Assembly: GCA_041665305.1 (NCBI GenBank)
Contig: JBAYJD010000008.1
Coordinates: 9,209 to 73,208 of the forward strand
DNA: 64,000 bases
Source of the DNA: Elusimicrobiales bacterium
GTDB lineage: Bacteria; Elusimicrobiota; Elusimicrobia; Elusimicrobiales; UBA9959
Reading direction: 5' to 3'
In this document: one piece after another, positions 24,506 to 50,521 of the stretch
Position numbering within the stretch: the first letter of the stretch is position 1
Layout of the letters: each line of letters opens with the position of its first letter
Notes under the pieces: generated by a model
Told to the model about the DNA's origin: nothing
The model's input: the letters and a program-made list of their open reading frames with translations, nothing else
Database searches by the model: none
Translations under genes and position numbers: made by a program

Positions 24506-24641
24506 AGTCGACCGGCTTACCAGGGAATTCGTAGCCCTGGAGTAGTGTCCGTATATTTACCCCTAACTACCAAACGGAGGCGTTAAAATTGTATTACGGT
24601 ATAAAATGGGGGATTCAACAGGAACTTGAGGAGGCTTGTTT

Positions 24642-25784
24642 ATGGAAATATCTTTTCACCGCGCGCATATAACCGAGGATGAAATTAACGGTGTGGTGGC
24701 GGCTGTTAAATCGGGCTGGCTTACCATGGGGCCTAAAACCGTTGAATTTGAGGAGAAGTTCAAGGATTATGTTTTTGCCGGTTCGGCCGTGCCGGCTGAA
24801 AACCGGTTTGCGGTGTCTTTTAATTCCGCCACGGCGGCGCTGCACCTGGCGCTTAAGGCTATCGGTTTAAAAAAAGGCGACGAGGTTATCATCCCCACGA
24901 ATACCTTTATCGCCACCGCCGAGGTCGTGACCTATTTCGGCGCCGTCCCGGTGCTTTGCGATGTCGAGTATGATACACATAATATGGATGTTTCCAAACT
25001 TAAGGCGCTTATAACATCCAGAACCAGGGCTGTTATCCCCGTGCATTACAGCGGCCAGATGTGCGATATGGACGAGCTCATGGCTCTGGCCAAAGAGCGC
25101 GATTTGAAAATTATCGAGGACGCCGCGCATTGTCTGCCCTCGTCTTATAAAGGCCGGCGCGCCGGGACCATAGGCGACATAACCTGTTTTAGTTTCTACG
25201 CCACCAAAACTCTGGCGTGCGGCGAGGGGGGGATGGCCGTTACCACGAACCCCGATTATGCCAAGACCATGAAGATCAACCGCCTGCACGGCATAAGCCG
25301 CGACGCCTGGGACCGCTATACGGCCAAAGGCAACTGGTTCTATGAGGTTGTGGATAACGGGAACAAATACAATACCACCGATATTCATTCCGCCCTGGGG
25401 CTGGCGCAGCTGGCCAAACTTGAAAAAATGTGCGCCATGCGCAAAAGAACGGCCGGTATTTATAATGCGGCTTTTGCCGGTTCTGCCGTAACCATGCCCG
25501 TGGTCCGCGCGGACAGGGATACCGCCTGGCATCTGTACGCTATAAAGGTGAATAACCGCGACGAATTGATGGCAAAGCTTAAAGAAAACGGCATTTCGAC
25601 TTCATTGCATTTTATTCCGGTTCACCGGCAGCCGTATTACACCGCAAAATACGGTTATAAAAAGGAGGATTATCCGGTGTCTGAAAAGATTTACGCCGGG
25701 TCCGTCTCCCTGCCTATTTACCCGGATCTGACGGAAGAGGAATCCCGTTTCGTGGCGGCCAGGGTCCTTGAATATGCGAAATAG
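24642..25784 (+). CDS. DegT/DnrJ/EryC1-family nucleotide-sugar aminotransferase (PglE-like)
   Basis: PLP-lysine context SFYATKTLACGEGG. Strong RBS gaggagg before the ATG at 24642. Confidence 0.85.
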   Translation: MEISFHRAHITEDEINGVVAAVKSGWLTMGPKTVEFEEKFKDYVFAGSAVPAENRFAVSFNSATAALHLALKAIGLKKGDEVIIPTNTFIATAEVVTYFGAVPVLCDVEYDTHNMDVSKLKALITSRTRAVIPVHYSGQMCDMDELMALAKERDLKIIEDAAHCLPSSYKGRRAGTIGDITCFSFYATKTLACGEGGMAVTTNPDYAKTMKINRLHGISRDAWDRYTAKGNWFYEVVDNGNKYNTTDIHSALGLAQLAKLEKMCAMRKRTAGIYNAAFAGSAVTMPVVRADRDTAWHLYAIKVNNRDELMAKLKENGISTSLHFIPVHRQPYYTAKYGYKKEDYPVSEKIYAGSVSLPIYPDLTEEESRFVAARVLEYAK

Positions 25785-26418
25785 TTTGTACGCGCTTTAC
25801 GGCAAGCGCGTCTTTGACATGCTGGCCGCAGCGTGCGGCCTTCTGGTGTTAAGTCCGGTCTTTATTTTAGCCGCGATAGCGGTTAAATTAAGCGGGCCCG
25901 GCCCGGTGCTGTTCGGCCACAGGCGCATAGGGCTTGATTTTAGGCCGTTCTATACGCATAAATTCCGCACTATGGTGGCCGGCGCGGACCGGAAAGGCTC
26001 CGCTATCACCACCGGCGGCGACGCCAGAATAACCGCCGTCGGGCGGTTGCTGCGCAAGACCAAAATCGACGAGCTGCCGCAATTGTTCAATGTGCTTGTG
26101 GGCGAGATGAGCCTGGTCGGCCCTAGGCCGGAAGTGGCGCAGTATGTCGAACTGTTCCGGGAAGACTATAAAACAGTGCTGAGCGTGCGCCCCGGCATAA
26201 CCGATTACGCGGCGATAGAGTACAGGGATGAAGAGGGTGTGCTGCGGGAGCTGGTCGGCGGGGAGGAATCCCCCAAACGATATCCTACCACTCATGACGC
26301 CTATGTGGCTGAAGTGCTTCCCGCCAAGATCGCTCTTTATAAGAAGTACATAGCGGAGCAATCCTTCCTGACGGACATAAAAATAATCATAAGAACATTC
26401 GGGAAAATAGTTGGCTAG
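25774..26418 (+). CDS. undecaprenyl-phosphate sugar phosphotransferase (small PglC-like initiating enzyme)
   Basis: Single N-terminal re-entrant helix. KFRTM, DELPQLFNVLVGEMSLVGPRP hallmark. The last ~20 codons are duplicated at 29591-29648. Confidence 0.9.
   Translation: MRNSLYALYGKRVFDMLAAACGLLVLSPVFILAAIAVKLSGPGPVLFGHRRIGLDFRPFYTHKFRTMVAGADRKGSAITTGGDARITAVGRLLRKTKIDELPQLFNVLVGEMSLVGPRPEVAQYVELFREDYKTVLSVRPGITDYAAIEYRDEEGVLRELVGGEESPKRYPTTHDAYVAEVLPAKIALYKKYIAEQSFLTDIKIIIRTFGKIVG
26349..26376 (+). repeat. left copy of 28-bp exact direct repeat bounding the islet
   Basis: catagcggagcaatccttcctgacggac is identical at 29591-29618. Similarity continues imperfectly for ~25 more nt in both copies. 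Confidence 0.9.
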
Positions 26419-26510
26419 ACGGCTGGACAGGTTGGAAAGTAGCTGTATGATCGGGGGCTAGCTTAATAGTGGTCGTTTTAAATAAGTGCATGAAATTTTA
26501 TATAAAATAC

Positions 26511-26539
26511 TTGCATTTATGAAAAAATTGCTGTATACT
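26511..26539 (+). promoter_or_regulatory. sigma-70-type promoter for the abiE operon
   Basis: TTGCAT (26511-26516), 17-nt spacer, TATACT (26534-26539). Lies 18 nt upstream of the ATG at 26557. Confidence 0.55.
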
Positions 26540-26556
26540 ATAAGCATCGGGGCATT

Positions 26557-27129
26557 ATGAAGAACGCGGAAAAATTAAAAAATTATATGCAGCCGGACCG
26601 GGTTTACAGACGCCAGGATCTGGAGGGGTGTTCAACTGCCGTGGACCGTGATTTGAAAACTCTTGTGGAGAGCGGCGAAGTGCGGAAACTTTCCGGCGGG
26701 CTTTACTATCGTGCCGGCAAAAATGCGTTTGGCTTTACATCGCCTGGTGACGAAGAACTTGTGCGGGCCTTCCTTAAGACCGATGATTTCCTGCTGACTT
26801 CATACAATTACTTCAATCAGCTAGGCCTGGGCCTTACTCAGGTCTATAGCGCCGGGTTGGTGTATAACCATAAACGAGCCGGGGAGTATTCTCTGGGCGG
26901 TAAAAGATTTAAGTTCCGTCTGGTGCCCGCATATCCACATGAGCTAAGCCGGGAATTCCTCCTGGTTGACTTGCTGAATAATCTTAAACGGCTGCCTGAT
27001 AATACCTATGGCGCCCTTGAGAATTTAAAGATCCGCTTAAAGGAATTCGACCGTACCGGTTTGACTGTCTGCGCGCAACGATATGGGAGTCCGGGGGCTA
27101 GAAAGATCCTACGGGGGATTTATGCCTGA
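26557..27129 (+). CDS. AbiEi-family type IV toxin-antitoxin antitoxin (transcriptional regulator-like)
   Basis: About 190 aa with a winged-helix-like N-terminus (DLKTLVESGEVRKLSGGLYY). 8-nt overlap with the AbiEii-type gene. Confidence 0.7.
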   Translation: MKNAEKLKNYMQPDRVYRRQDLEGCSTAVDRDLKTLVESGEVRKLSGGLYYRAGKNAFGFTSPGDEELVRAFLKTDDFLLTSYNYFNQLGLGLTQVYSAGLVYNHKRAGEYSLGGKRFKFRLVPAYPHELSREFLLVDLLNNLKRLPDNTYGALENLKIRLKEFDRTGLTVCAQRYGSPGARKILRGIYA

Positions 27130-28069
27130 CTTTTTCCATGTCAGGCCTGACGCTAAGGAGCTTTTTGAAACGCTTGCCTCACAAAAAGGCCTGCCCCCGG
27201 TCGTGGTGGAAAAAGATTACTGGGTAATGCACTGCCTATGGGGACTAAAGCGGCTGGGTTTGCATTTTGAGATGAAAGGCGGCACTTCTCTGTCTAAAGG
27301 GTGGCGTGTTATTGAGCGGTTTTCCGAAGACATTGATATCCGTTTTGAGCCCCCTCCGGGGTTAAGTGTGAAGGGAGACAAGCCGGCGCAGGTTGAAGCG
27401 CGCTTTGATTTTTATGACGCGTTGGCGGAGAAAATAAAAATACCGGGAATTATGGCGCAGAGGAATCGCGCCTATGATGATGAGAAAGCTCAAAATGGCG
27501 AAATAAGCCTGAAGTACGATTCTTTTTTTGCGTTAAATCCCGGCCTGGGGTTAAGGCCCGAGGTACTGTTGGAAGCCGGTTTTGCCAGAACCGCGCCGAA
27601 CGAACCCAGGGATTTCAGCAGTTGGGCTATGGACAAAGCCCTGGCCGCCGGACTTAAGATCGCTGACAACCGCGCCGGCGGCGTTCTGTGTTTTAATCCC
27701 GAATATACCTTCGTGGATAAGCTCCAGACAGTATGCAGGCGTTTTCGGCAATGGCGGGACCGCAACGATCCGCAAAAAGACAGACCGCGGCAGTTCAGCC
27801 GGCATTATTATGATCTGTACATGCTGCTGGTTGTTGACCGGGTTAAGAATTTTATAGGCACTGCGGGTTATAATAACTATAAAAGCGAAAAAATAAAAGG
27901 ACTTGACGCAAAGGAGTTTTCGTCGCGCAGCGCTTTCGTCTTTAGTGATGCCGGGACTTACGACCTGTTTGAAAAAGAATTTAAAGAATTAAACGGTCTG
28001 TTATTGTCTACTGGTCCGTCATTCAAGGAAGTTGTTGCAAGATTACGGGAGTGGTCTCCCGGATTATAA
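27122..28069 (+). CDS. AbiEii/AbiGii-family nucleotidyltransferase toxin (DUF1814)
   Basis: Hallmark VVEKDYW...GGTSLSKGWRVIERFSEDIDI. Confidence 0.85.
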   Translation: MPDFFHVRPDAKELFETLASQKGLPPVVVEKDYWVMHCLWGLKRLGLHFEMKGGTSLSKGWRVIERFSEDIDIRFEPPPGLSVKGDKPAQVEARFDFYDALAEKIKIPGIMAQRNRAYDDEKAQNGEISLKYDSFFALNPGLGLRPEVLLEAGFARTAPNEPRDFSSWAMDKALAAGLKIADNRAGGVLCFNPEYTFVDKLQTVCRRFRQWRDRNDPQKDRPRQFSRHYYDLYMLLVVDRVKNFIGTAGYNNYKSEKIKGLDAKEFSSRSAFVFSDAGTYDLFEKEFKELNGLLLSTGPSFKEVVARLREWSPGL

Positions 28070-28206
28070 CCAGGGACCAGGTCGGACAGGATCACCAAAA
28101 GGTATTCTACTCTTCATGATGCTTACAAGGAGCCTGGTAAGCAAATCAATTTGTTAATATTACACGCATATTGTAAAAACAACGAGTTGTTTGTGTAATC
28201 AACTCC

Positions 28207-29595
28207 ATGAAAAGAACCGTAGAGGTGCGGCTTGATGCCTGGCTGGCAAGTCCGGACCGGCGCCCGCTTGTTCTGCGTGGGCCCCGGCAGGTTGGGAAAA
28301 CCTGGCTGGTGCGGGAGTTGGCTGCCCGTTCCGGCCGCCGCCTGGTAGAGATTAATTTTGAACGGGATCCTTCCCTGAAGCGAATTTTCAAATTCAAGGA
28401 TCCCCGCCGGGTTTTGGGAGAGCTTTACCTTGCTCTATCTGTTGATATCGATCCGGATAACAGTTTGCTTTTTTTAGACGAGATCCAGGGTGCGGGAGAG
28501 GTGCTTGCCGGTTTACGCTGGTTTTATGAGGAACTGCCCCGGTTGCCGGTGGCGGCGGCGGGTTCGTTGCTGGATTTTGCGCTCGCCGACCATGCTTTCA
28601 GCATGCCGGTAGGACGCATAGCTTTCCAGCATATTGAACCGATGGGGTTTCCCGAATATCTTATAGCCCACGGGCAGGAACGCCTGCTGTCTCCGATCTC
28701 CGCCTGGCGTCCCGGCGAAGAGCTTTCCGTAACGGCGCATGCGCAGGCTTTGAGCTGGTTTTACCGGTTTGCGATGGTCGGCGGTATGCCGGCGGTGGTG
28801 GCGGCGGATGTGGGCGGGCGTGAGCCGCGTCATGTGCGGGAACTGCAAAAAGATCTGGTGGCCGCTTATCGTGCGGACTTTGCAAAGTATTCCGGCCGGA
28901 TGGACAGGGATATCCTTGACGCTGTGTTGAAAACTGTGGTCGCGTCGCTGGGCAGGAAGTTCGTCCACGCTCATGTGCGTGAAGGCGTAAAACAACATCA
29001 AGCAAAACGCGCGTTGGATATGTTGAGCATGGCGCAACTTGTGCATCAGGTCCGTTACACCGCGGCCAACGGGTTGCCTTTGGGCGCAGAAGTGAAAAAT
29101 TCTTTCCGTAAGGTGGTGGCGGCGGATGTGGCGGTTGTTCACGCGATACTGAACACTCCCGCCGCTCAGTCCTACCCGGAGTGGGACTCTTTGGCCCCGG
29201 CGCTGCGGGGTCAGTTGACAGATCAACTGGCGGCTGCTCAGTTACGGTTGACAGATTCCGGGGCTGGTGACGGTCCGGAGCTCTACTACTGGCAGCGAGA
29301 AGGGGGGCGTCCCGGAGAGATCGATTATCTGGTGCAAATGCTGGGCCGCATTATTCCTGTAGAACTCAAGCCAGGAGCGTCAGGCGCTATGAAAAGCCTT
29401 CACCAGTTTATGTTTGAGCGACGCCTGCCGCTCGCCGTGCGGGGTGACTCAAACCCTCCCTCCGTGATAAATGTGGATGTGAAAACTACACAGGGCAATG
29501 CCGTGCGTTACAAGCTTGTAAGCGTACCCGTCTACATGCTCTGGAATCTGCCGGCTATACTGGCGAAAGAACTTGGAACGGTGGGCGCCACATAG
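28207..29595 (+). CDS. AAA-family ATPase with DUF4143-type C-terminal domain
   Basis: Walker A GPRQVGKTW, Walker B LLFLDEIQ. C-terminal EIDYLV...PVELK restriction-endonuclease-like motif typical of this family. Much higher GC than the flanking TA genes. Confidence 0.8.
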   Translation: MKRTVEVRLDAWLASPDRRPLVLRGPRQVGKTWLVRELAARSGRRLVEINFERDPSLKRIFKFKDPRRVLGELYLALSVDIDPDNSLLFLDEIQGAGEVLAGLRWFYEELPRLPVAAAGSLLDFALADHAFSMPVGRIAFQHIEPMGFPEYLIAHGQERLLSPISAWRPGEELSVTAHAQALSWFYRFAMVGGMPAVVAADVGGREPRHVRELQKDLVAAYRADFAKYSGRMDRDILDAVLKTVVASLGRKFVHAHVREGVKQHQAKRALDMLSMAQLVHQVRYTAANGLPLGAEVKNSFRKVVAADVAVVHAILNTPAAQSYPEWDSLAPALRGQLTDQLAAAQLRLTDSGAGDGPELYYWQREGGRPGEIDYLVQMLGRIIPVELKPGASGAMKSLHQFMFERRLPLAVRGDSNPPSVINVDVKTTQGNAVRYKLVSVPVYMLWNLPAILAKELGTVGAT

Positions 29596-29648
29596 CGGAG
29601 CAATCCTTCCTGACGGACCTGAAGATAATCACAAAGATAGTCTGTTAA
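29591..29648 (+). repeat. right copy of the direct repeat, a remnant alternative 3' end of the sugar-transferase gene
   Basis: Read in the transferase frame it gives IAEQSFLTDLKIITKIVC-stop, against IAEQSFLTDIKIIIRTFGKIVG-stop at the intact gene end. Confidence 0.85.
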
Positions 29649-29801
29649 TTCATAATTTATGCCGGACAGACTTCGCCGGGCGGATGGGTCTTTCGGTCCT
29701 TTCCGGGTTCCCCTTTGGCCTCATGCGGCCATTCACGGCATTAGCTATACTATTACCATGCTTCAGGCGGTTACTCACATGAAAATAGAGGGGGAACTTC
29801 T

Positions 29802-31712
29802 ATGAAACTTCTTGCTTTTGCTAAAAAACGGATACGCTATCTTTCGTGCCTACTGGACGCGGGGATCGTGATCTTCTCCTACGGCGCCGCTTTTTTGCTG
29901 CGGTTCGGGCCTCACGCGCCTGGACTCCAGGTGGATCTGTTCTTTAAAACTTTCTTAATGATCATCGCCGTCAATCTGCTGTCGTTCGGATATTTCGGCC
30001 TGTATCGCAGCATCTGGCGCTATACGGGGATGAACGACCTGTTCGCCGTTATCAAGGCCGTGGTCACGGGCAATCTGCTGGCGTCGGCGTTCGTGCTGTT
30101 TTTCTGGCGCGAGGGCTTTTCCCGCTCCATCCTTATCATAGCGCCGCTGCTGACGCTGCTCCTGGTCGGCGGCAAAAAATTCCTTGTAAGGGAATTCCTG
30201 AACAGGCGCGTCAAACAGCCGGCGCCCGGCCGGTCGAAAGTTTTTATTTTCGGCGCGGGCGACCTCGGCGAAAGCGTGCTGCGGGAGCTGCATAGGGCCT
30301 GGCCGCATAAATACAAGGTCGCGGGATTTCTTGACGATTCGTCCGACAAATGGGGCCGCGCGATCCACGGCATACCGATTCTCGGCGGCAGAGAGGAAAT
30401 GGTCAGGCTTATAGAGAAGCACGGCGTGGACGAGATCGTCATCGCCATAAGCCATTCGCGGGGGAGGATCCTCGGCGATCTGATGGAGATCTGCGACGCA
30501 GGAAAACTTAGAAAGAAAGTCCAGTTTAAAACCGTCCCCACGGTTTATGAGGCTTTGACCGGTTCCGGGCAGAGCAGGCACTCTTTGCGGAAAATAGAGC
30601 TGAGCGATCTGCTTCACCGCAGGCCCGTGCAGACCGACATGATGAAGGTGGCCGGGCTTATACAGGGCAGGACGGTCCTTGTTACGGGCGCGGGCGGCAC
30701 TATCGGCTCGGAATTGTCCAGGCAGATCATGAAGTTCAAGCCCAAAACCCTGCTTTTGCTGGAAAACCACAATACGGCGCTGTTTTATATCGAAAAAGAG
30801 CTTGCCGCCGCCACTGATTCCACCAAAGTGGTCCCGATAGCGGGAGATGTCAAGGACCGGAGTCTGCTGGAAAATGTGTTTTCCGCGTATAAGCCGGACC
30901 TTGTTTTTCACGCCGCCGCGCACAAGCATGTGCCGCTGATGGAGTCAAACCCGCAGGAAGCGGTCAAGAACAATACGCTCGCCACCCGCGGCCTGGTTGA
31001 GACGGCCATGGCCCACGGCACGGATAGGATGCTTTTTATCTCGACCGACAAGGCCGTCAGGCCGTCGAGCGTTATGGGGGTTTCCAAGCGCCTGAGCGAG
31101 ATGGTGATCTCTTCTCTGTCCGGCAAGTCCAAGACCAAGCTTATGTCGGTGCGGTTCGGCAATGTTCTGGGCAGTTCAGGCAGCGTGGTTAATATTTTTA
31201 GGGAACAGATAGCCAACGGCGGGCCGGTGACCATCACCCACCCCGACGCCACCCGGTACTTCATGACCACCCAGGAAGCCGTGCAGCTGGTGCTGCAGGC
31301 TTGCGCCCTGAGCGCGGGAGGCGAGGTGTTCGTTTTAAATATGGGAGAACCTGTCAAGGTCATGGATCTGGCCAAAAATGTCATAAGGCTGGCCGGTTTC
31401 GAGCCGGGCAGGGATATCGAGATCCGCTCCATCGGGCTGCGGCCGGGAGAAAAGCTGCATGAGGAATTGTTCCGCCCCACCGACATAAGGGGCGAAACGG
31501 GGCATCCGGATATTTTTATGGCCGTGCCGGAAGGCAGGCTGGTGTCGGACGCCGATATCGTGGAACTGAGAGCGCTTTGCCAGCTGCCGGACCCGGCGCC
31601 GCTGCTTGCCAAAGCCAAAGAGATGGTGCGTTCTTTTAACAGGCTTTTTAACAACGGCGCGGAATTGGAAGCTGATGAAGCCGAAACGGAAAGTTCCGAC
31701 GGGGGGAAATGA
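29802..31712 (+). CDS. membrane-anchored UDP-HexNAc 4,6-dehydratase (CapD/PglF/WbpM family)
   Basis: Four N-terminal TM helices. VTGAGGTIGSEL and FHAAAHKHVPLME hallmark. Confidence 0.9.
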   Translation: MKLLAFAKKRIRYLSCLLDAGIVIFSYGAAFLLRFGPHAPGLQVDLFFKTFLMIIAVNLLSFGYFGLYRSIWRYTGMNDLFAVIKAVVTGNLLASAFVLFFWREGFSRSILIIAPLLTLLLVGGKKFLVREFLNRRVKQPAPGRSKVFIFGAGDLGESVLRELHRAWPHKYKVAGFLDDSSDKWGRAIHGIPILGGREEMVRLIEKHGVDEIVIAISHSRGRILGDLMEICDAGKLRKKVQFKTVPTVYEALTGSGQSRHSLRKIELSDLLHRRPVQTDMMKVAGLIQGRTVLVTGAGGTIGSELSRQIMKFKPKTLLLLENHNTALFYIEKELAAATDSTKVVPIAGDVKDRSLLENVFSAYKPDLVFHAAAHKHVPLMESNPQEAVKNNTLATRGLVETAMAHGTDRMLFISTDKAVRPSSVMGVSKRLSEMVISSLSGKSKTKLMSVRFGNVLGSSGSVVNIFREQIANGGPVTITHPDATRYFMTTQEAVQLVLQACALSAGGEVFVLNMGEPVKVMDLAKNVIRLAGFEPGRDIEIRSIGLRPGEKLHEELFRPTDIRGETGHPDIFMAVPEGRLVSDADIVELRALCQLPDPAPLLAKAKEMVRSFNRLFNNGAELEADEAETESSDGGK

Positions 31713-34592: not shown

Positions 34593-37316
34593 ATGACAGA
34601 CCCCGCCATAAAACCGACTCTTGCCGTCAATCCTCACGGCCATCTTTACTGGGACGCTGCCGGAGGCGAGGAGGCCTGGCCGGACCCTTCGGCCGCGGCG
34701 CGCCTGGCGGAGGCTTTCGCTTCGGGAGCGCCGCAGGGGCTGCTGCATCTGGGTTCTCGGGAGCCGGAGACCCCGCTGCCTGCGGCCGCCGCATTCTGGA
34801 GGGAAATAAGCCGCCGCTGCCTTTCCGGTTTTTGCCGGACCGTTGTGGACGGCGCGGGCGGCCTGCCGCCTTGCGCGCCGGCGCCGCTGGAAGAGTTGCG
34901 CTCCTGGCTGGAACGGCTGCCCCCCGTCAAAGGCGGAGAGTATCTTACCGTGGAGGCGCTGGCGGGGATCTGGACCTCGCTCGACGCTCACGCGCGCGCC
35001 GGGGCCGCCGCGCATCCCGGCGGCCCCGCGGAATTTTTAAAAACCCTGGGTCCGGTCTGGCATACCGTGGGCCGGGTGGTCTTCCATCTAGCCGAGAACC
35101 GTAAAAATGAAAATTATCCGTTCGCTTTTCTTGCGACTTACGCCTCGGGGGTGTCGGGGCACGGCCGGGTGAGGTATCAGCCGCTGGCGGAGGCGCTGAA
35201 GGAATACGCCGGCGGGGGCAATAAAGCGGCGCTGCTGCGCCTGCTGGCTCCCGTGCACGCGGCGGCGGAAAAAAGCGCGGTCGCGCGCGAACTGCTGGAA
35301 ACCGGCGCGTTGTTCAAGCCTCTGGCCTGGAGCCCGTCCCAGGCTTACCGGTTTTTAAAAGACGCCTCCGTGATCTCCGAAGGCGGGGTGGTAGTGCGGC
35401 TGCCGGACTGGTGGCGCGGCGGCCGCGCGCCCCGGGCGCGGGTGGGCGTGCGCCTGGGCGACGCCGCGGGCGCGGGGCTGGGGCTGGGCGCGCTGCTGGA
35501 TTTTAAGCTTGAAAAAAGCCTGGACGGAGAGCCCCTGAGGGAGGCCGACTGGAAAACGCTGATGAGCTCGTCCGGCGGGCTGGTCCTGATCCGGGGCCGC
35601 TGGATCGAAGCCGACCCGGAAAAACTGAAAACGGCGCTTGAACACTGGGAGCGCGTAGGGAAGTCCGCGGACGGCGTGAGCCTGGCCGAAGCTATGCGTC
35701 TTCTTTCGGGCGCGGATCTCAACGGCGGCCCTGCGGACGGAGTTGAGGCCGCCGCGGTAAGGGAGTGGAGCGGGGTTAAAGCCGGCGGCTGGCTTGCGGC
35801 CGCGCTGGCCGGTCTCCGCGATCCCGGCAAGGCGGGGAAGCTTCCCGCGATGCCGGGGCTTGCGGCCGAATTGCGGCCTTACCAGAAAACCGGCGTCGCC
35901 TGGCTGCGTTTTATGACCGGGCTTGGCCTGGGCGCCTGCCTGGCCGACGATATGGGCCTGGGAAAAACGGTCCAGGTGCTGGCCCTCCTGCTGGCCCGCA
36001 AAGCGGAACAGCGCGCGGCCCCGCCCAGCCTGATCGTCGCGCCGGCCTCCCTGCTCGCGAATTGGCGTGCGGAAATTATGCGCTTCGCCCCTTCATTGAA
36101 GCACCGGATCCTGCATCCGTCGGAAATGGAGACGGACGAGTGGAAGGCTCTTCAAAAAGACGCCGGCGGGGCCGTGGCCGGTTACGATCTGGTCCTGACC
36201 ACCTACGGGCTGGTCGCAAGGCTTGAGAGCCTGCGCCGGGCGCGATGGGATGTTGTGGCGCTGGACGAAGCCCAGGCCGTCAAGAATTCCGCCGCGCGCC
36301 AGACCCGCGCCGTTAAGGAGCTTGCCTGCGCCCAGCGTCTTGTCCTGACAGGCACGCCGGTGGAGAACCGTCTGGGCGACCTGTGGTCCATTTTCGACTT
36401 TCTTAACCCCGGCCTGCTAGGGTCCGCCGCGCAATTCGGCCGGTTCATAAAGGCGGGGCCGCGGGACGGGAGCGGCCTGGGGGCGCTGCGCGCGCTGGCC
36501 AAGCCGTATATCCTGCGCCGGATGAAGACGGATAAAAGCGTGATAACGGACCTCCCGGAGAAGACGGAGGTGAAGGCTTATTGCGGGCTGGCGCCCAGGC
36601 AGGCCGCGCTTTATGAAGCCGCCGTGCGCGAGCTGGGGTCGCAGGTGAAAAATGCCGGAGGGGGGATACGGCGCCGCGGCCTGGTGCTGTCATATCTGAT
36701 GCGGTTGAAACAGATCTGCAACCACCCGTCGCATTGGCTGCGGGACGGGGGCTACGCGGAAGCCGAAAGCGGCAAATTCCAGCGGCTGCGGCTTATCGCC
36801 GAGGAGATCGCTTCCCGCCAGGAAAAGGCGCTGGTCTTCACGCAGTTCCGGGAACTGACCGGCCCGCTGCTGGAATTCCTTACCGGCCTGTTCGGGCGCC
36901 CGGGGCTGGCTCTGCACGGCGGAACGCCGGTAAGGGCCCGCAAAGGGCTGGTGGACGCCTTCCAGGCTGAGAACGGCCCGCCGTTCTTTGTGCTTACCTC
37001 CAAGGCCGGAGGTTCGGGGCTGAATCTGACGGAAGCGTCGCATGTGATCCACTTCGACCGCTGGTGGAACCCGGCGGTGGAGAACCAGGCCACGGACCGC
37101 GCCTTCCGGATCGGGCAGAAACGCAATGTGCTGGTGCATAAATTCGTCTGCCGGGGCACGCTTGAAGAGCGCATCGACGAGCTGATAGAAAGCAAGGCGC
37201 GGCTGGCGGACAGCGTGATAGGCGGGGGCGGGGAAACGATGCTGACCGAAATGAGCGACGCCGACCTGCTGAAATTCGTTTCGCTCGATCTCAACCGGGC
37301 CGCCGAGTCGCAATAA
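34593..37316 (+). CDS. SNF2-family helicase/ATPase with long N-terminal SNF2-associated region
   Basis: LRPYQ..GVAWL, LADDMGLGKT (motif I), LDEAQAVKN (II), LTGTPVENRL (III), helicase-C GGSGLNLTEASHVIHFDRWWNPAVENQATDRAFRIGQ. Confidence 0.9.
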   Translation: MTDPAIKPTLAVNPHGHLYWDAAGGEEAWPDPSAAARLAEAFASGAPQGLLHLGSREPETPLPAAAAFWREISRRCLSGFCRTVVDGAGGLPPCAPAPLEELRSWLERLPPVKGGEYLTVEALAGIWTSLDAHARAGAAAHPGGPAEFLKTLGPVWHTVGRVVFHLAENRKNENYPFAFLATYASGVSGHGRVRYQPLAEALKEYAGGGNKAALLRLLAPVHAAAEKSAVARELLETGALFKPLAWSPSQAYRFLKDASVISEGGVVVRLPDWWRGGRAPRARVGVRLGDAAGAGLGLGALLDFKLEKSLDGEPLREADWKTLMSSSGGLVLIRGRWIEADPEKLKTALEHWERVGKSADGVSLAEAMRLLSGADLNGGPADGVEAAAVREWSGVKAGGWLAAALAGLRDPGKAGKLPAMPGLAAELRPYQKTGVAWLRFMTGLGLGACLADDMGLGKTVQVLALLLARKAEQRAAPPSLIVAPASLLANWRAEIMRFAPSLKHRILHPSEMETDEWKALQKDAGGAVAGYDLVLTTYGLVARLESLRRARWDVVALDEAQAVKNSAARQTRAVKELACAQRLVLTGTPVENRLGDLWSIFDFLNPGLLGSAAQFGRFIKAGPRDGSGLGALRALAKPYILRRMKTDKSVITDLPEKTEVKAYCGLAPRQAALYEAAVRELGSQVKNAGGGIRRRGLVLSYLMRLKQICNHPSHWLRDGGYAEAESGKFQRLRLIAEEIASRQEKALVFTQFRELTGPLLEFLTGLFGRPGLALHGGTPVRARKGLVDAFQAENGPPFFVLTSKAGGSGLNLTEASHVIHFDRWWNPAVENQATDRAFRIGQKRNVLVHKFVCRGTLEERIDELIESKARLADSVIGGGGETMLTEMSDADLLKFVSLDLNRAAESQ

Positions 37317-37336
37317 CATCATACAGGAGAATTATC

Positions 37337-38206
37337 ATGGGCTGGGGTTATTCTAATTTTTACAAACCGTATGTGAGCGCGCAGGAGTGCCGCCGCCGCG
37401 CGGAAAAAGCGGCGGCTAAAATGATGAAGGGCGGGCGCGCTCTCTCCCCCGTAGGGCTGGAGGGGCAGGCCATCGCCCGGTCCTTCTGGGGAAAAGCGTG
37501 GTGCGCCAATCTGGAATCTTACGGCGATTATTCCAACAGAATGCCGCGCGGCCGCTCCTATGTGCGCAACGGCTCCGTCATCCACCTCGACATCCGGCGG
37601 GGGGAAGTGGAGGCTTTGGTCAGCGGCGCGTTTTTATACAAGGTAAAAGTGAAGATCGCGCCGGTAGAGCCGGGGCGGTGGCGGGCTTTGTGCCGGGAAT
37701 GCGCGGGCGGCATAAGTTCGCTGATGGACCTGCTGCGCGGGAAGCTGTCGGAGCGGGTGATGGGGATCATGACGCGCCGCGGCGTCGGCTTGTTCCCCTC
37801 GCCGAAAGAGATAAAACTTGCCTGCGATTGTCCGGACGGGGCGCGGATGTGCAAGCATGTGGCGGCGGCGCTTTACGGGGTGGGCGCGCGGCTCGATACG
37901 AAGCCGGAACTGTTGTTCCTGCTGCGCCATGTCAGCCATCAGGAACTGCTCGCTCATTCCGGCACCTTGTCGGATTTAACCGAAACGAAAACAGCTCCCG
38001 GGCACGCGACGCTGTCCGCGGCGGAAATAAACGAGGTTTTCGGCATCGAGATGGAAACCGGCGAAGCGACGGCTGGCGGCGCGCCGGAGGTCCCGCCGGC
38101 CGCCAGGCGGGCCCGCAAGACGGACGCAAAACCCGCGCGACGGAGACCGCCGGTTAAAAAAAGTTTAAAGCGGAAAAATAAGCCTGTCTCCAAACGGCGC
38201 CGGTGA
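37337..38206 (+). CDS. SWIM zinc-finger protein with basic C-terminal tail
   Basis: CDCPDGARMCKHVAAALYGV (CxC...CxH SWIM signature). Lys/Arg-rich tail. Immediately downstream of the SNF2 gene, a recurrent pairing. Confidence 0.85.
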   Translation: MGWGYSNFYKPYVSAQECRRRAEKAAAKMMKGGRALSPVGLEGQAIARSFWGKAWCANLESYGDYSNRMPRGRSYVRNGSVIHLDIRRGEVEALVSGAFLYKVKVKIAPVEPGRWRALCRECAGGISSLMDLLRGKLSERVMGIMTRRGVGLFPSPKEIKLACDCPDGARMCKHVAAALYGVGARLDTKPELLFLLRHVSHQELLAHSGTLSDLTETKTAPGHATLSAAEINEVFGIEMETGEATAGGAPEVPPAARRARKTDAKPARRRPPVKKSLKRKNKPVSKRRR

Positions 38207-45889: not shown

Positions 45890-48556
45890 GTGGGTAATGA
45901 TATGAATAGCGCAAACAACTTGAATTACTACCTGTTCGCAGACAAACGGTTCTATGAGCCCATGGATTATTGCGTGGTAAATGAGGGCGATTATTTTGAT
46001 TTCGTCCGAAGCCAGGCTGATGCGGAATGGAAGTTTGTCAGAAGCGGTATCTGGATAAACTGTATATACCTTAAACATACGATGCCTCTTCAGGGCTGGA
46101 AAATACATTTGTCGGCGACTCATTCGGATTCTGAAGGCATTTTCAGCGCGGCGGCAGAGTTTCTTATGGCGAACAAGGTGACTTTTAAGTTCCTGTTAGA
46201 CAAAAAAACATTGGCGATAACCAATTCAAAAGGCTGGTCTCGCGGCGCTTCCGGGAAATTTATGACGGTGTATCCGACGGATCCGGAGCACTGCAAGTGG
46301 CTGCTGGAAAAACTGCATTCACTGACGGCGGATTTTTGCGGCCCGTATATCCTCTCTGATATGCGTTATAAAGACAGCAAAGTCCTGTACTACAGATATG
46401 GCGGATTCAGGCCGAATTTACGGCTTGATGTGAATGGGAAACGTATCCCGGTGCTGGTTTCCCCTGATGGAAAAGAGGAGGCCGATGTGCGGCCGCCGTA
46501 TTACCGTCTCCCCGGATGGGTGGATGAGATATTCCCGAAGAAGAATACAAATGAGTCTGGTGGCGGATTGAATAACGGGAGATATGCAGTTGAGAGATCT
46601 CTGCATTTCTCCAATACAGGCGGGATATATATCGCCTATGACAATATCGGGAAAAAAAGAGTTGTGCTGAAAGAGGCGCGTGCGCATGTCAACGCGTTCG
46701 CGGAAAATGTGGACGCCGCCAGAATGCTTAAGAGGGAGTATGATATCCTGAAAAAAGTCGGGAACTGCGGCATCGCGCCGGAGCCGGTTGAATTATTCAG
46801 GGAATGGGAGCACCTTTTCCTGGCGGAAGAATATCTGGAGGGTTATATCACGCTTCACGCTTTCGCCGCGCAGAACAGTATTCTGCTGGAGGCGCGCCCT
46901 ACCGAAGAGAAGGTTAAATCCTACCTGGAAAAATATATCGCAATTTTCAGAAAACTCGCGGGAATTATTGAGGCCCTTCATTCCCGGAATATCATATTCG
47001 GGGATTTTTCGGTCAATAATGTCCTGGTCAATCCCGCCACGCTGGATATAAAAATTATCGACCTGGAAGGGGCGCTTGTGGAGGGCGAGGAGGAAGCTTA
47101 TAAACTTTTTACACGCGGGTTTGCCGCCGTCGAGCAGGTCAAGGGGGCGGCGCCTACGCGGGAAAGCGATTATTACGCATTCGGCGCGATAATGCTGTAT
47201 ATGCTGACGCATATAAACGGGATTCTGGATTTAAAGCCTGATGCCGGAACTGAAGCATTGCAGATGGTGGGCCGGGATTTTGGCATACCTGTAAAGTTGA
47301 GAAGGATTATAAATACCCTCATGCACTCCGATCCCGCGAAGCGGCGGGGCCCGGGTGTTTTGCGCGATCAGAAGCAGGAAACTGCTTTAAGGAAGACATG
47401 CGCGGTCAGATTGTCCGCAGCTGCTCCCCGGTTGTCCAGGAAGTACATTACTGATACCGTGCGGTCGGCATGCAGCTTTATTGAATCGAGCGCGGACTAC
47501 GCCAGGAAAGACAGGCTCTTTCCCGCAGACCCGGAAATTTTTGAAACGAATCCGCTCAGTCTTGCGCATGGGGCCGTAGGGGTTCTTTATACATTATCAA
47601 AACTCGGACGCAAGCCTGCTCCCGAAATGCTGCAATGGGTGCGCCAGCATGAAATTTCCGGCAAAAATTGTCCGCCCGGCTTATATCCGGGAATGTCCGG
47701 CATAGCCTGGGGACTGCTTGAGCTTGGCGATAAGGCTGGCGCCGAGGCTGTGTTCGGTAAAACATTCAATTCCCCGCTTTTAGCTGTTTCTTCATCGCTG
47801 TATACCGGCCTGGCCGGTTGGGGGATGACCAATCTTAAGTTCTGGCTGGCCACCCGCAAGGAAATTTACCTGGACAATGCCAAAAAGGCGGGGGAAACAT
47901 TGCTTGATTCCGCGCGCAACGATTCTCACGGTGCGCACTGGCCTGATCAGGCCGGCAAAGTGCCTATCGGGCTGGCGCACGGAGCGGGAGGAATAGGTCT
48001 TTTCCTGCTGTATCTTTACGCGGCCACCGGCAATCAAAAATACCGGCAAAAAGCCGTGGAGGCATTGGATCACGACATCGCTTATGCCGATGCGTTCGGA
48101 AACGGTAATATGGCCTGGGCGAAGACAGCCGGAGAGAACGGGGCGCTTTACCCTTACTGGGAATACGGCAGCGCCGGTATCGGAATTGCCTGCCTGCGCT
48201 ATTTCAGCGTGTTAAAGGAACCTAAGTACATGAAACTTGTGGAAAAGATATATGAAAGCTGCGCGACAAAATATGCGATTTTCCCAGGAAGAAATATGGG
48301 CATGGCAGGTCTGGGCGAGTTTCTGCTTGACGCTTATGCCGTGACAAAAGACGTAAAATACCTCAATAGCGCGCACAGTGTCGCAAGCGGATTCAAACGT
48401 TTTGCGATACGAAGCCCAAAAGGCGTCGCGTTCCCCGGCGACGGTCTGGCACGGATAAGTTGTGATTACGCCGCCGGGATGAGCGGGATCATACTGTTCC
48501 TCGACCGGCTGGTGTCAGGCCGGCCTGCGGATTTTATGCTTGATGAATTGCTTTAA
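45890..48556 (+). CDS. class III lanthipeptide synthetase (LanKC: lyase-kinase-cyclase)
   Basis: Central kinase-like VVLKEARAH, FGDFSVNNVLVN, IIDLEGA. C-terminal LanC-like GxxG repeats (SLAHGAVG, GMSGIAWG, GLAGWG, GLAHGAGG). The Zn-ligand positions read WEYGSAG and GRNMGMAG rather than WCxG and CHG, as expected for class III. Start is GTG 45890 or ATG 45902. Confidence 0.85.
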   Translation: MGNDMNSANNLNYYLFADKRFYEPMDYCVVNEGDYFDFVRSQADAEWKFVRSGIWINCIYLKHTMPLQGWKIHLSATHSDSEGIFSAAAEFLMANKVTFKFLLDKKTLAITNSKGWSRGASGKFMTVYPTDPEHCKWLLEKLHSLTADFCGPYILSDMRYKDSKVLYYRYGGFRPNLRLDVNGKRIPVLVSPDGKEEADVRPPYYRLPGWVDEIFPKKNTNESGGGLNNGRYAVERSLHFSNTGGIYIAYDNIGKKRVVLKEARAHVNAFAENVDAARMLKREYDILKKVGNCGIAPEPVELFREWEHLFLAEEYLEGYITLHAFAAQNSILLEARPTEEKVKSYLEKYIAIFRKLAGIIEALHSRNIIFGDFSVNNVLVNPATLDIKIIDLEGALVEGEEEAYKLFTRGFAAVEQVKGAAPTRESDYYAFGAIMLYMLTHINGILDLKPDAGTEALQMVGRDFGIPVKLRRIINTLMHSDPAKRRGPGVLRDQKQETALRKTCAVRLSAAAPRLSRKYITDTVRSACSFIESSADYARKDRLFPADPEIFETNPLSLAHGAVGVLYTLSKLGRKPAPEMLQWVRQHEISGKNCPPGLYPGMSGIAWGLLELGDKAGAEAVFGKTFNSPLLAVSSSLYTGLAGWGMTNLKFWLATRKEIYLDNAKKAGETLLDSARNDSHGAHWPDQAGKVPIGLAHGAGGIGLFLLYLYAATGNQKYRQKAVEALDHDIAYADAFGNGNMAWAKTAGENGALYPYWEYGSAGIGIACLRYFSVLKEPKYMKLVEKIYESCATKYAIFPGRNMGMAGLGEFLLDAYAVTKDVKYLNSAHSVASGFKRFAIRSPKGVAFPGDGLARISCDYAAGMSGIILFLDRLVSGRPADFMLDELL

Positions 48557-48566
48557 GGAGAATCCA

Positions 48567-50117: not shown

Positions 50118-50126
50118 TGCGGTTTT

Positions 50127-50205: not shown

Positions 50206-50280
50206 ATTGTTGTCTGGCTTTTAAATCCTTTGCATCCCGGACTGTTGAATTTTCCCAATGAAGGCAATTAAATTTGATAA

Positions 50281-50509: not shown

Positions 50510-50521
50510 TCTGGTTATGAT

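What the first reader, a model, noticed from the sequence alone, without database searches (positions are those of the whole stretch)
26349..29648. A 3.2-kb AbiE plus DUF4143-ATPase islet inserted into the 3' end of the initiating sugar-transferase gene, with the gene end duplicated
A 28-bp exact repeat (catagcggagcaatccttcctgacggac) occurs at 26349 and 29591. In both places it continues as a recognisable but diverged coding end of the PglC-like gene (…IAEQSFLTDIKIIIRTFGKIVG-stop versus …IAEQSFLTDLKIITKIVC-stop). Between the copies lie an AbiEi/AbiEii type IV TA pair with its own sigma-70 promoter and a much more GC-rich AAA/DUF4143 ATPase. The ATPase stop codon sits inside the right repeat. 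This is the footprint of site-specific integration into a gene 3' end that regenerates the reading frame, yet no integrase or transposase is present. Without the islet, the PglC-like and PglF-like genes would be adjacent.
Basis: partly seen in the sequence, partly recalled or inferred. Interest (0 to 1): 0.6.

Follow-up and report, generated by a model that had tools for sequence, protein, structure and literature searches.

The report
Defence islet with duplicated gene end
Two small anti-phage gene cassettes, with no recombinase of their own, sit inside a sugar-coat gene cluster of an uncultured Elusimicrobiales bacterium, and the end of the neighbouring gene is duplicated on both sides; this is a rarely noticed but already described way for defence genes to insert.

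Summary
A 29-bp exact direct repeat lies at 26348-26376 and 29590-29618. It brackets 3.2 kb that splits a DegT–PglC–PglF gene order which three relatives keep intact.

The left copy completes an intact PglC-like gene. The right copy is a degenerate orphan tail, shorter than the tail of any of 106 homologues.

The insert is not one element. It holds an AbiEi/AbiEii toxin–antitoxin operon and a solo AAA+/PD-(D/E)XK ATPase (PADLOC candidate PDC-S01). Elsewhere the two occur independently of each other.

No integrase or transposase was found in the 64-kb window, and there is no tRNA gene. No copy of the 3.2-kb unit was found elsewhere.

Other copies of both cassettes carry locus-specific flanking repeats of 26-200 nt:
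- ATPase loci: 11 of 72, against 5 of 222 control frames.
- AbiE loci: 7 of 37.

The cassette ends are ragged. This fits "insertion with long target duplication", described for restriction-modification genes (Furuta et al. 2010). It also fits 3'-end displacement by homology-facilitated illegitimate recombination better than it fits integrase-mediated integration.

Verdict: a new member of a known kind. Interest is moderate.

The parts
24636..25784 (+). DegT/DnrJ-type sugar aminotransferase gene; conserved left neighbour (context)
   Evidence: PF01041 E=1.7e-122. It is 84-87% identical to the gene upstream of PglC in L008, L009 and L011.
25774..26418 (+). PglC-like initiating phosphoglycosyl transferase (Bac_transf), intact. 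The ORF opens at TTG 25768; the database protein P0001 starts at ATG 25774.
   Evidence: PF02397 E=3.7e-57, covering profile positions 1-178 of 179. P0001 is 100% identical and named sugar transferase, Elusimicrobiales. The tail after the conserved D is 13 aa, the family mode.
26348..26376 (+). Left copy of the 29-bp exact direct repeat, inside the PglC-like coding end (YIAEQSFLTD)
   Evidence: Both copies share CAA (Q) and GAC (D), where three relatives have CAG and GAT.
26377..26418 (+). Functional last 13 codons plus stop of the PglC-like gene (IKIIIRTFGKIVG*). Inferred to have arrived with the insert.
   Evidence: It matches the family consensus DLKILIRTLGKIVG. It differs from the right tail at 8 of 30 aligned bases plus 12 nt of indel. 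Its origin is an inference.
26482..26545 (+). AbiE operator/promoter: a conserved palindrome-like block AAGTGCATGAAATTTTATATAAAATACTTGCAT, then TATACT. It marks the left edge of the AbiE cassette homology.
   Evidence: Matches of 93-97% over 32-36 nt to the same position in L022, L024, L025, L045, L058/59 and L062. Upstream flanks all differ.
26557..27129 (+). AbiEi antitoxin/regulator gene
   Evidence: PADLOC AbiEi PDLC02234 E=1.3e-66, full length. It lies immediately upstream of AbiEii in all 71 of the 80 related loci that keep that flank.
27122..28069 (+). AbiEii nucleotidyltransferase toxin gene; overlaps AbiEi by 8 nt
   Evidence: PF08843 E=1.6e-23. PADLOC AbiEii E=1.2e-59, residues 1-310.
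28170..28203 (+). Conserved upstream motif of the ATPase cassette: palindrome AAACAACG/CGTTGTTT followed by a TGTGTAAT -10-like box
   Evidence: Alignment A1. Among the first 20 loci the pattern was found only upstream of ATPase genes, plus the PglC–PglF spacer of L011-13.
28207..29595 (+). Solo AAA_14 + DUF4143 ATPase (PD-(D/E)XK nuclease-family C-terminal domain); PADLOC candidate PDC-S01. Homology to other copies ends near 29573. The last 7 codons and the stop come from flanking or repeat DNA.
   Evidence: PF13173 and PF13635. PDC-S01 E=2.4e-118. C-termini and 3' alignment. Walker A GPRQVGKT, Walker B LFLDEIQ and EID...VELK are read directly from the translation.
29590..29618 (+). Right copy of the 29-bp exact direct repeat; contains the ATPase stop codon TAG at 29593-29595
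29619..29648 (+). Degenerate orphan tail of a PglC-like gene (LKIITKIVC*); inferred displaced resident gene end
   Evidence: My PglC C-terminal HMM hits it at E=4e-5. It has 9 residues after the conserved D, against at least 12 in all 106 parsed homologues.
29802..31712 (+). PglF-like polysaccharide biosynthesis dehydratase gene; conserved right neighbour (context)
   Evidence: PF02719 E=1.6e-108. It follows PglC directly in L008, L009 and L011.

Best explanation
**What it is.** The segment is a composite defence islet inside a surface-polysaccharide locus of an uncultured Elusimicrobiales bacterium. It holds two self-contained cassettes.
- An AbiEi/AbiEii type IV toxin–antitoxin (abortive-infection) operon with its own operator and promoter.
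- A single-gene AAA+ ATPase fused to a PD-(D/E)XK nuclease-family domain (candidate system PDC-S01) with its own palindromic upstream motif.

**How it got there.** Neither cassette encodes a recombinase. I infer that the DNA entered by host recombination anchored on the conserved 3' end of the PglC-like gene.
- One joint is homologous. It lies in, or at the right edge of, the 29-bp block.
- The other joint is illegitimate. It lies between the end of the ATPase cassette and the resident gene, 75 nt before the resident stop codon.
- The incoming DNA carried its own version of the last 13 codons, which now completes the PglC-like gene.
- The resident last codons were pushed 3.2 kb downstream and survive as a decaying orphan.
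- The 29-bp repeat is therefore a recombination footprint, not a dedicated attachment site.

**Class.** Descriptively this is 'insertion with long target duplication'. Mechanistically it is a 3'-end displacement by homology-facilitated illegitimate recombination.

**Shown:** the insertion, the repeat, the intact left end, the degenerate right end, the independence of the two cassettes, the absence of a recombinase, and similar repeats around other copies.

**Inferred:** the kind of recombination and which tail is resident.
For: **Insertion into a conserved gene order**
- Three relatives have DegT–PglC–PglF adjacent, with one gene end.

**Repeat structure**
- The 29-bp repeat is exact and non-random.
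- Both copies share lineage-specific synonymous bases.
- Identity then drops sharply: 0 of 29 mismatches, then 8 of 30 plus 12 nt of indel (Fisher p=0.0046). That is expected if one edge of the block is a crossover between diverged homologues.
- The right tail is shorter than in any of 106 homologues.

**Two independent cassettes**
- AbiE homology across loci starts at 26482.
- ATPase homology runs from the upstream motif near 28170 to about 29573.
- The two types were not found together in 80 AbiE loci or 83 ATPase loci.

**Ragged cassette ends**
- The ATPase ORF ends at different points and borrows its stop codon from flanking DNA. This is seen in the window and in L103, L153, L016, L020 and L181.

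**Same footprint elsewhere**
- Locus-specific direct repeats of 26-150 nt flank 11 of 72 ATPase loci, against 5 of 222 shifted control frames.
- Repeats of 29-200 nt flank 7 of 37 AbiE loci.
- PglF gene fragments are duplicated around AbiE-type and ATPase cassettes in L101-L103.

**No recombinase**
- No integrase or transposase was found, there is no tRNA gene, and no Rfam family matched 25500-30200.

**Precedent in the literature**
- PMC2853133 describes restriction-modification genes inserted with 30-420 bp variable target duplications and no mobility genes. One example is a 46-bp repeat overlapping a gene's 3' end.
- PMC5361080 describes orphan 3' ends left by homology-facilitated illegitimate recombination.
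Against: - No empty site exists at species level. All four samples carry the identical islet, and the nearest PglC is only 75-77% identical. So neither the direction of the event nor the resident tail can be proven.
- An exact block next to a diverged copy of the gene end that still regenerates the ORF is also the textbook signature of an att site.
- L025 shows ATPase, then a transferase-tail remnant, then AbiE. That is the order an excised circular form of this islet would have.
- It is not explained why both cassettes, elsewhere independent, lie inside a single pair of repeats with no repeat between them.
- Homology-facilitated illegitimate recombination is rare wherever it has been measured (PMC5361080).
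- Natural competence of Elusimicrobia is unknown to me.
Confidence: 0.55

Rival explanations
1. Site-specific integration. A 3.2-kb integrase-less element (like a cis-mobilisable element, or a decayed island) integrated into the 3' end of the PglC-like gene by a tyrosine or serine recombinase. The recombinase was supplied in trans or later lost. The 29-mer is the att core and the element carries a replacement gene end.
For: - A direct repeat of exact identity is followed by a diverged but functional gene-end copy on the element side.
- The ORF of the target gene is regenerated.
- L025 has the circularly permuted order: ATPase, transferase-tail remnant, AbiE.
- L028 is an AbiE contig with 100-nt terminal redundancy that could be a circle.
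Against: - No integrase, resolvase or transposase domain was found in the 64-kb window.
- The 3.2-kb unit was not found elsewhere. AbiE and this ATPase are distributed independently.
- Repeats around other copies vary from 26 to 200 nt, and no common core was seen among those printed.
- Cassette ends are not precise.
- In L101 the repeated PglF remnants have different left boundaries.
- The L025 ATPase and transferase tail belong to other subfamilies.
Confidence: 0.17
2. True long target duplication made at insertion. A staggered break or a replicative capture, possibly driven by a nuclease such as the PD-(D/E)XK domain of the ATPase, duplicated about 75 nt or more of the resident PglC end. 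The unselected right copy then decayed.
For: - Both 29-mers carry the same lineage-specific synonymous bases.
- The same kind of locus-specific repeat recurs around solo ATPase genes in several phyla.
- The last ORF of the cassette often runs into the repeat.
- PMC2853133 proposes DNA double-strand breakage as the property shared by cassettes that insert this way.
Against: - Decay would be spread evenly over the orphan. Instead it shows 0 of 29, then 8 of 30 plus two 6-nt deletions (p=0.0046).
- AbiE cassettes, which encode no nuclease, show flanking repeats at a similar rate: 7 of 37 against 11 of 72.
- L170 and L180 share the ATPase at one locus but only L170 has the left repeat copy.
Confidence: 0.13
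3. Polysaccharide-locus replacement. The variable glycosyltransferase cluster, together with a new PglC-like gene, was swapped in by recombination. An older PglC gene had already been truncated by defence-gene insertions, and the right copy is what remains of it.
For: - DegT–PglC–PglF sit at the conserved edge of a locus whose upstream glycosyltransferases differ between relatives.
- Gene remnants pile up at this edge in relatives L101-L103.
- The upstream cluster has a lower GC content, 46%.
Against: - It requires more events.
- It does not explain why the remnant begins exactly where identity with the live gene begins, or why that block is 29 of 29 identical with shared synonymous states.
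- DegT, to the left of the repeat, is the best-conserved gene of the three compared with relatives.
Confidence: 0.1
4. Chance repeat or assembly artefact.
For: The source is a metagenomic de Bruijn assembly.
Against: - No match is expected by chance.
- The sequence is identical in four assemblies made by different pipelines.
- The repeat is shorter than the assembly k-mer implied by the contig name, k141. It therefore cannot cause a graph loop; this last step is my inference.
Confidence: 0.01

Closest known systems
Insertion with long target duplication of restriction-modification gene complexes (Nobusato et al. 2000, as cited in Furuta et al.; Furuta, Abe & Kobayashi 2010, PMC2853133)
   Same: - A small defence-gene cassette with no mobility gene.
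- Flanked by a long, locus-specific direct repeat whose length varies between loci.
- The repeat can overlap the 3' end of the neighbouring gene; their example is 46 bp overlapping 15 bp of HI0105.
- The repeat sequence is present once in genomes without the insert.
   Different: - The cargo is an AbiE toxin–antitoxin plus an ATPase-nuclease candidate, not a restriction-modification system.
- Exact identity here is 29 bp, just under their 30-bp cut-off. The rest of the repeat is diverged with indels, whereas their repeats are mostly 93-100% identical.
- The empty site is seen only in distant relatives.
- Their mechanism is itself unresolved.
C-terminal (3'-end) displacement with orphan 3' ends at Rhs, CDI and T6SS effector loci, attributed to homology-facilitated illegitimate recombination (Kirchberger et al. 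2017, PMC5361080, which cites Jackson et al. 2009)
   Same: - A conserved upstream part of a gene serves as the homology anchor.
- Incoming DNA brings a new gene end plus cargo.
- The old end is shifted downstream and kept as an orphan.
- Repeated events build arrays, as seen for PglF remnants in L101.
   Different: - The displaced piece here is a 9-codon membrane-proximal tail with no known polymorphic function, not a toxin domain.
- The cargo is unrelated to the gene whose end is displaced.
Integrative islands without their own integrase (cis-mobilisable elements, pseudo-SCC elements). This comparison rests on my own knowledge, not on a paper read here.
   Same: - Direct repeats at both ends.
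- Insertion into the 3' end of a protein gene, with the reading frame restored.
- No recombinase inside.
   Different: - No partner element or integrase is detectable.
- The unit is not recurrent.
- Ends and repeat lengths are not fixed across related cassettes.
AbiE type IV toxin–antitoxin / abortive infection system, and PADLOC candidate PDC-S01
   Same: - Full-length matches to both AbiE components and to PDC-S01.
- The AbiE genes form an overlapping bicistronic operon, with a conserved palindromic block in the promoter.
- PDC-S01 is described as an ATPase fused to a PD-(D/E)XK domain and as the fourth most common defence candidate (PMC12988326).
   Different: - Neither activity was tested here.
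- Defence by PDC-S01 is unvalidated in the papers I read.

Membership tests
Insertion with long target duplication (criteria of PMC2853133) | The inserted segment carries defence genes and is shorter than 20 kb | tested here: met
   The insert is 3.2 kb and carries AbiEi, AbiEii and PDC-S01. The cargo class differs: it is not a restriction-modification system.
Insertion with long target duplication (criteria of PMC2853133) | No mobility gene or other mobile element in or next to the insert | tested here: met
   No integrase or transposase domain in the called genes from about 15.8 to 41.7 kb. None in the long ORFs scanned in the rest of the window. No tRNA gene.
Insertion with long target duplication (criteria of PMC2853133) | Flanking direct repeat longer than 30 bp | tested here: inconclusive
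   29 bp are exact and 45 bp are 91% identical. About 75 nt are homologous if two 6-nt indels are allowed.
Insertion with long target duplication (criteria of PMC2853133) | The repeat aligns with a single-copy sequence in a genome that lacks the insert (empty site) | tested here: inconclusive
   A single gene end followed directly by PglF is seen in L008, L009 and L011. These are only 71-75% identical in PglC. No empty site exists within the species.
Site-specific integrative element (att-flanked island) | A cognate integrase or recombinase gene in the element, or an identifiable partner | tested here: not met
Site-specific integrative element (att-flanked island) | Direct repeats (attL/attR) with a core of identity at both ends, and the target gene end regenerated | tested here: met
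Site-specific integrative element (att-flanked island) | The same unit recurs with the same ends at the same kind of site, or as a circular attP form | tested here: not met
   None of 80 AbiE loci and none of 83 ATPase loci carries the partner cassette type. Ends are ragged. L025 only resembles the permuted order, with other subfamilies.
3'-end displacement by homology-facilitated illegitimate recombination | A live gene with a new 3' end, cargo after it, and an orphan old 3' end downstream in the same orientation | tested here: met
3'-end displacement by homology-facilitated illegitimate recombination | One homologous joint and one illegitimate joint, shown by comparing donor and recipient | not testable with these tools
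   Neither a donor sequence nor an ancestral recipient sequence is available. Only the abrupt change from 0 of 29 to 8 of 30 mismatches is consistent with it.
AbiE type IV toxin–antitoxin | An AbiEi regulator/antitoxin gene followed by an AbiEii (DUF1814) nucleotidyltransferase gene in one operon | tested here: met
   PADLOC E=1e-66 and 1e-59, Pfam PF08843. The genes overlap by 8 nt. The pair is kept in all related loci that keep that flank.
AbiE type IV toxin–antitoxin | Toxicity, neutralisation and abortive-infection phenotype | not testable with these tools
   This needs experiments.
PDC-S01 (PADLOC candidate) | A single gene with an AAA_14 ATPase domain followed by a DUF4143 PD-(D/E)XK-family domain | tested here: met
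   PF13173 and PF13635. PDC-S01 HMM E=2.4e-118 over residues 1-454. DUF4143 is listed in the PD-(D/E)XK superfamily (PMC3424549).
PDC-S01 (PADLOC candidate) | Anti-phage activity | not testable with these tools
   Reported as not yet validated (PMC12988326).
PglC-like phosphoglycosyl transferase (Bac_transf) | A full-length Bac_transf domain with a C-terminal tail of family-typical length | tested here: met
   The left copy covers profile positions 1-178 of 179 and has a 13-residue tail. With the right copy the tail would be 9 residues, shorter than in any homologue.

The most novel reading that the evidence does not exclude
AbiE operons and PDC-S01 ATPase genes, like the restriction-modification genes of Kobayashi's studies, would belong to one general class of recombinase-less mobile defence cassettes. 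These would enter genomes by a dedicated but unknown process that duplicates tens to hundreds of bases of the target. For PDC-S01, the fused PD-(D/E)XK nuclease might help make the break. On this reading, one of the most common 'defence systems' in prokaryotes would be partly a selfish, self-spreading gene, and the window's duplicated PglC end would be its footprint.
Probability: 0.1. Interest if true: 0.75.

Novelty: new member of a known kind. Interest (0 to 1): 0.4.

Why it matters
- **The islet itself is ordinary.** Its cargo is two of the commonest defence modules.
- **The value lies in how it got there.** It is a clean, fully intact example of a defence islet that entered a conserved operon without a recombinase, kept the interrupted gene working and left an orphan gene end.
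- **The footprint is not unique to this locus.** The same kind of repeat turned up around about 15-19% of other AbiE and PDC-S01 cassettes across several phyla.
- **This extends an older observation.** Long target duplication had been described for restriction-modification genes in cultured bacteria. Here it appears for toxin–antitoxin and ATPase-nuclease cassettes in uncultured lineages.
- **It points to a hotspot.** The edge of surface-polysaccharide loci seems to collect such cassettes in Elusimicrobia. That is plausible where phage receptors and phage defences evolve side by side.
- **A practical warning.** Short orphan gene ends next to defence genes are recombination scars, not attachment sites.

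Tried and rejected
- **Species-level empty site.** Exact-protein look-ups for PglC, ATPase, PglF and P0001 found only the same islet in four samples. No closer relative than 75-77% PglC identity exists in the protein collection.
- **Right copy as a conserved PglF leader.** Rejected: no similarity to relatives' spacers.
- **AbiE pair next to PglF in L011 as the same cassette.** Rejected: the proteins are unrelated in sequence.
- **ATPase C-terminus derived from PglC sequence** ('LPAILAKE' against 'LPAKIALYKK'). Rejected: LPxILAKE is conserved in ATPase homologues elsewhere.
- **A shared junction motif** (GGACAGGYTG, with GGACAG at all three junctions in the window). It occurs at the L101 and L103 junctions and once in the window. 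It is absent from the other cassette loci and overlaps a -35-like box. Left as unexplained, not used.
- **L025 as a closed 3.2-kb circle.** There is no terminal redundancy.
- **tRNA or known RNA targets.** No tRNA in the window or in the repeat-flanked loci except one distant tRNA in L167. No Rfam match in 25500-30200.
- **Using complete E. coli genomes to see filled and empty sites.** Not possible: there was no E. coli plasmid homologue to seed a DNA search among the hits summarised and listed.
- **Flanking repeats in L015, L016, L020 and L181.** None found. The repeats are therefore frequent but not universal.
- **Ferrying the ccdO157 precedent from memory.** The key paper is not held, so it is not used.

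Full report
**1.
- The reported 28-mer occurs exactly twice in 64 kb, where none is expected by chance.
- Exact identity is 29 nt: ACATAGCGGAGCAATCCTTCCTGACGGAC, at 26348-26376 and 29590-29618. It extends to 45 nt at 91%.
- The left copy lies inside the end of an intact Bac_transf (PglC-like) gene. That gene covers profile positions 1-178 of 179.
- The right copy continues as ...DLKIITKIVC*.
- Three genes lie between the copies:
  - AbiEi (26557-27129), recognised by PADLOC at E=1e-66 although Pfam misses it.
  - AbiEii (27122-28069), matching PF08843.
  - An AAA_14+DUF4143 ATPase (28207-29595), matching PADLOC candidate PDC-S01 at E=2e-118.
- The ATPase stop codon (TAG, 29593-29595) is inside the right repeat.
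- The window comes from a 73.7-kb contig of an Elusimicrobiales MAG.
- The same 4.2 kb is 100% identical in contigs from four samples and pipelines, so this is not an assembly artefact.
- The ATPase is 57.6% GC against 49-50% for AbiE. That is no higher than the flanking PglC and PglF genes.

**2. It is an insertion into a conserved gene order.**
- The nearest PglC homologues in 5.8 billion proteins are only 71-77% identical.
- Three of them lie on long contigs: L008, L009 and L011. All three show DegT–PglC–PglF directly adjacent, with spacers of 49, 142 and 245 bp and a single gene end.
- The right copy and the 153 nt after it have no counterpart upstream of PglF in these relatives. The 'conserved PglF leader' alternative therefore fails.
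- In 106 homologues the tail after the conserved aspartate is 12-25 residues, with a mode of 13-14. The left copy has 13 residues and the right copy 9.
- The right copy is still recognised by an HMM of PglC C-termini at E=4e-5.
- So the left copy is the working gene end and the right copy is a degenerate orphan.

**3. The islet is two cassettes, not one element.**

*AbiE cassette*
- Eighty loci encode relatives of this AbiEii (39-82% identity). AbiEi is immediately upstream in every one that keeps that flank. None has a homologue of the window's ATPase nearby. About 30-33 of them have more than 1.5 kb of flank on a given side.
- DNA similarity among these loci begins abruptly at a conserved operator/promoter block, AAGTGCATGAAATTTTATAAAAAATACTTGCAT...TATACT, at window 26482. 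The upstream flanks all differ.

*ATPase cassette*
- The ATPase has relatives at 80-88% identity in other Elusimicrobia and at 50-68% in about ten other phyla.
- In the first three contexts examined it sits alone and tightly wedged between unrelated genes. In L020 it lies between ileS and lspA.
- These copies share a roughly 35-nt upstream motif: a palindrome AAACAACG/CGTTGTTT plus a -10-like box, at window 28170-28203.
- Homology ends at or just before the last codons. The ORF then reads into whatever follows and borrows its stop codon from it. This is seen in the window and in L016, L020, L103, L153 and L181.
- Cassette ends are thus functional boundaries with ragged edges, not fixed termini.

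**4. The same footprint surrounds other copies of both cassettes.**
- I aligned 450 nt upstream against 390 nt at and beyond the 3' end of each ATPase homologue. Locus-specific direct repeats of 26-150 nt appeared in 12 of 83 loci, where shuffled controls scored at most 14.
- With strict flank requirements the count is 11 of 72, against 5 of 222 same-sized frames shifted within the same loci.
- L103 adds a repeat of about 45 nt. Its left copy holds the PglF stop codon and its right copy holds the ATPase stop codon.
- AbiE cassettes behave alike. Seven of 37 loci have flanking repeats of 29-200 nt:
  - In L058/59, a duplicated intergenic hairpin plus promoter.
  - In L040, a 29-nt repeat whose edge forms the AbiEii stop codon.
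  - L028, a 2.3-kb contig with 100-nt terminal redundancy.
- The repeats differ from locus to locus and none is a tRNA gene.
- In relatives L101-L103, PglF gene fragments of different lengths are repeated around AbiE-type pairs and the ATPase.
- L181 has two DUF4143 ATPases right after PglF.
- L025 has a DUF4143 ATPase of another subfamily, then a Bac_transf tail remnant, then an AbiE operon 79% identical to the window's.
- The edge of sugar-pathway loci is therefore a recurrent landing place in this phylum.

**5. Mechanism.**
- No integrase, resolvase or transposase domain was found. The called genes around the islet (about 15.8 to 41.7 kb) and the long ORFs scanned in the rest of the window were checked.
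- There is no tRNA gene, and no Rfam family matches 25500-30200.
- Both 29-mers share two synonymous states, CAA and GAC, that differ from all three relatives. The sequences after them nevertheless differ at 8 of 30 aligned bases and by two 6-nt indels.
- That break in identity is unlikely under uniform decay (Fisher p=0.0046).
- The simplest account has three parts:
  - Incoming DNA carried a diverged PglC end, followed by AbiE and the ATPase.
  - One joint formed by homologous exchange, ending in the 29-nt block.
  - The other end was joined illegitimately to the resident gene at the start of that block, 75 nt before its stop codon.
- The segment between the two joints is then present twice, and the resident tail becomes an orphan.
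- This is homology-facilitated illegitimate recombination. It has been invoked for orphan 3' ends at T6SS and Rhs loci (PMC5361080).
- A single crossover with a circularised fragment would give the same product.
- Descriptively the structure belongs to 'insertion with long target duplication'. That class was documented for restriction-modification genes of all types, with repeats of 30-420 bp, no mobility genes and proven empty sites. One of those repeats overlaps a gene's 3' end (PMC2853133). The mechanism of that class is unresolved.

**6. Rivals.**
- *Integrase-mediated integration, with the enzyme in trans or lost.* This fits the att-like look and the permuted order in L025. Against it: no recombinase was found, the unit is not recurrent, and repeat lengths and cassette ends vary.
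- *A true target duplication of about 75 nt followed by decay.* This fits the shared synonymous bases. Against it: the uneven divergence, and AbiE cassettes, which encode no nuclease, showing repeats at a similar rate.
- *Replacement of the upstream polysaccharide cluster, leaving an old remnant.* This needs more events and does not explain the exact 29-nt block.
- *Chance or artefact.* Excluded.

**7. Function of the cargo (inferred from family membership, not tested).**
- AbiEii is the nucleotidyltransferase toxin. AbiEi is the antitoxin and autorepressor of a type IV toxin–antitoxin, abortive-infection system.
- The conserved palindrome-like block in the promoter is the likely AbiEi operator.
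- The ATPase has Walker A (GPRQVGKT), Walker B (LFLDEIQ) and an EID...VELK motif in a domain placed in the PD-(D/E)XK superfamily (PMC3424549).
- PDC-S01 is reported as the fourth most common defence candidate in prokaryotes and remains unvalidated (PMC12988326).

**8. Verdict.**
The insertion is real, and the gene end is duplicated with the reading frame preserved.
- The proposed mechanism, site-specific integration of one element, is the less likely reading.
- The locus is a new member of a known but little-studied kind.
- Its main interest is as a clean example. It is also a lead to a wider pattern: long flanking repeats around AbiE and PDC-S01 cassettes, which still needs empty-site proof.

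Noticed in passing
L011 8680-8715 (also L012, L013); compare window 28170-28203: The conserved upstream motif of the ATPase cassette (AATCAACGCATTGTTTGTATA) sits in the PglC–PglF spacer of a relative that has no ATPase gene there. Three other assemblies of that organism end their contigs within about 130 nt after the PglC stop. This may be a scar of a lost ATPase cassette at the same site, or a polymorphic site.
   Followed up: partly
L025 1-3275 (JGI Ga0172379_10058666): The order is a DUF4143 ATPase of another subfamily, then a Bac_transf C-terminal remnant, then a hairpin, then an AbiE operon 79% identical to the window's. These are the same three components as the window islet, in circularly permuted order. 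The contig is not terminally redundant.
   Followed up: partly
L167, L176, L174, L153, L172, L170, L111, L179, L161, L108, L157, L107, L103 (ATPase); L078, L058/59, L036, L064, L040, L028 (AbiE): Locus-specific direct repeats of 26-200 nt flank solo PDC-S01 ATPase genes and AbiE operons in several phyla. The rates are about 15% and 19% of loci, against 2% of control frames. No empty sites could be checked.
   Followed up: partly
L028 1-100 and 2185-2284: A 2284-nt contig carrying only an AbiE operon has an exact 100-nt terminal redundancy. It is either a small circle or the assembly loop of a cassette flanked by repeats of at least 100 nt.
   Followed up: no
L101 1-4450; L102 1-1860; L103 380-2320: In three Elusimicrobia MAG contigs, PglF pseudogene fragments of different lengths are repeated around AbiE-type pairs and the 85-88% identical ATPase. 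Some of the fragments are internally deleted. A recurring junction sequence GGGGACAGGCTGCTTTA appears at L101 and L103 junctions, with a one-base variant in L102. A 10-nt match to it lies 7 nt after the PglC stop in the window, at 26425.
   Followed up: partly
window 28794-28813 and 29112-29131: A 20-nt exact repeat lies inside the ATPase gene, spaced 318 nt apart and coding VVAADV twice. The same spacing recurs in homologues L015, L020 and L103, so it is a conserved internal feature of the gene.
   Followed up: no
L170 3719-3932 versus L180: Two relatives, 93-97% identical across the aligned flanks, share the ATPase at one locus. Only L170 has a 214-nt segment that carries the left copy of the flanking repeat. 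So the repeat can be gained or lost independently of the gene.
   Followed up: no
window 45890-52877: A RamC-like lanthipeptide synthetase (kinase plus LanC domains) is followed by an ABC transporter, a radical SAM/SPASM protein and an MFS transporter. This is probably a peptide natural-product cluster.
   Followed up: no
window 34593-38206: An SNF2-family helicase with a DUF3670 domain is followed by a 289-aa protein with no Pfam match. It lies just beyond the polysaccharide locus.
   Followed up: no
window 62497-63021: A small ORF with an ORF6N domain was the only hit I would associate, from my own knowledge, with phage or mobile-element regulators. It lies 33 kb from the islet.
   Followed up: no
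L181 4762-7392 and 9683-11940: Another Elusimicrobia contig has PglF followed by two DUF4143 ATPases in tandem, one of them shortened. A glycosyltransferase gene follows, then RES–Xre and SocA/Panacea toxin–antitoxin genes. This is a larger defence islet at the same kind of site, without flanking repeats.
   Followed up: partly
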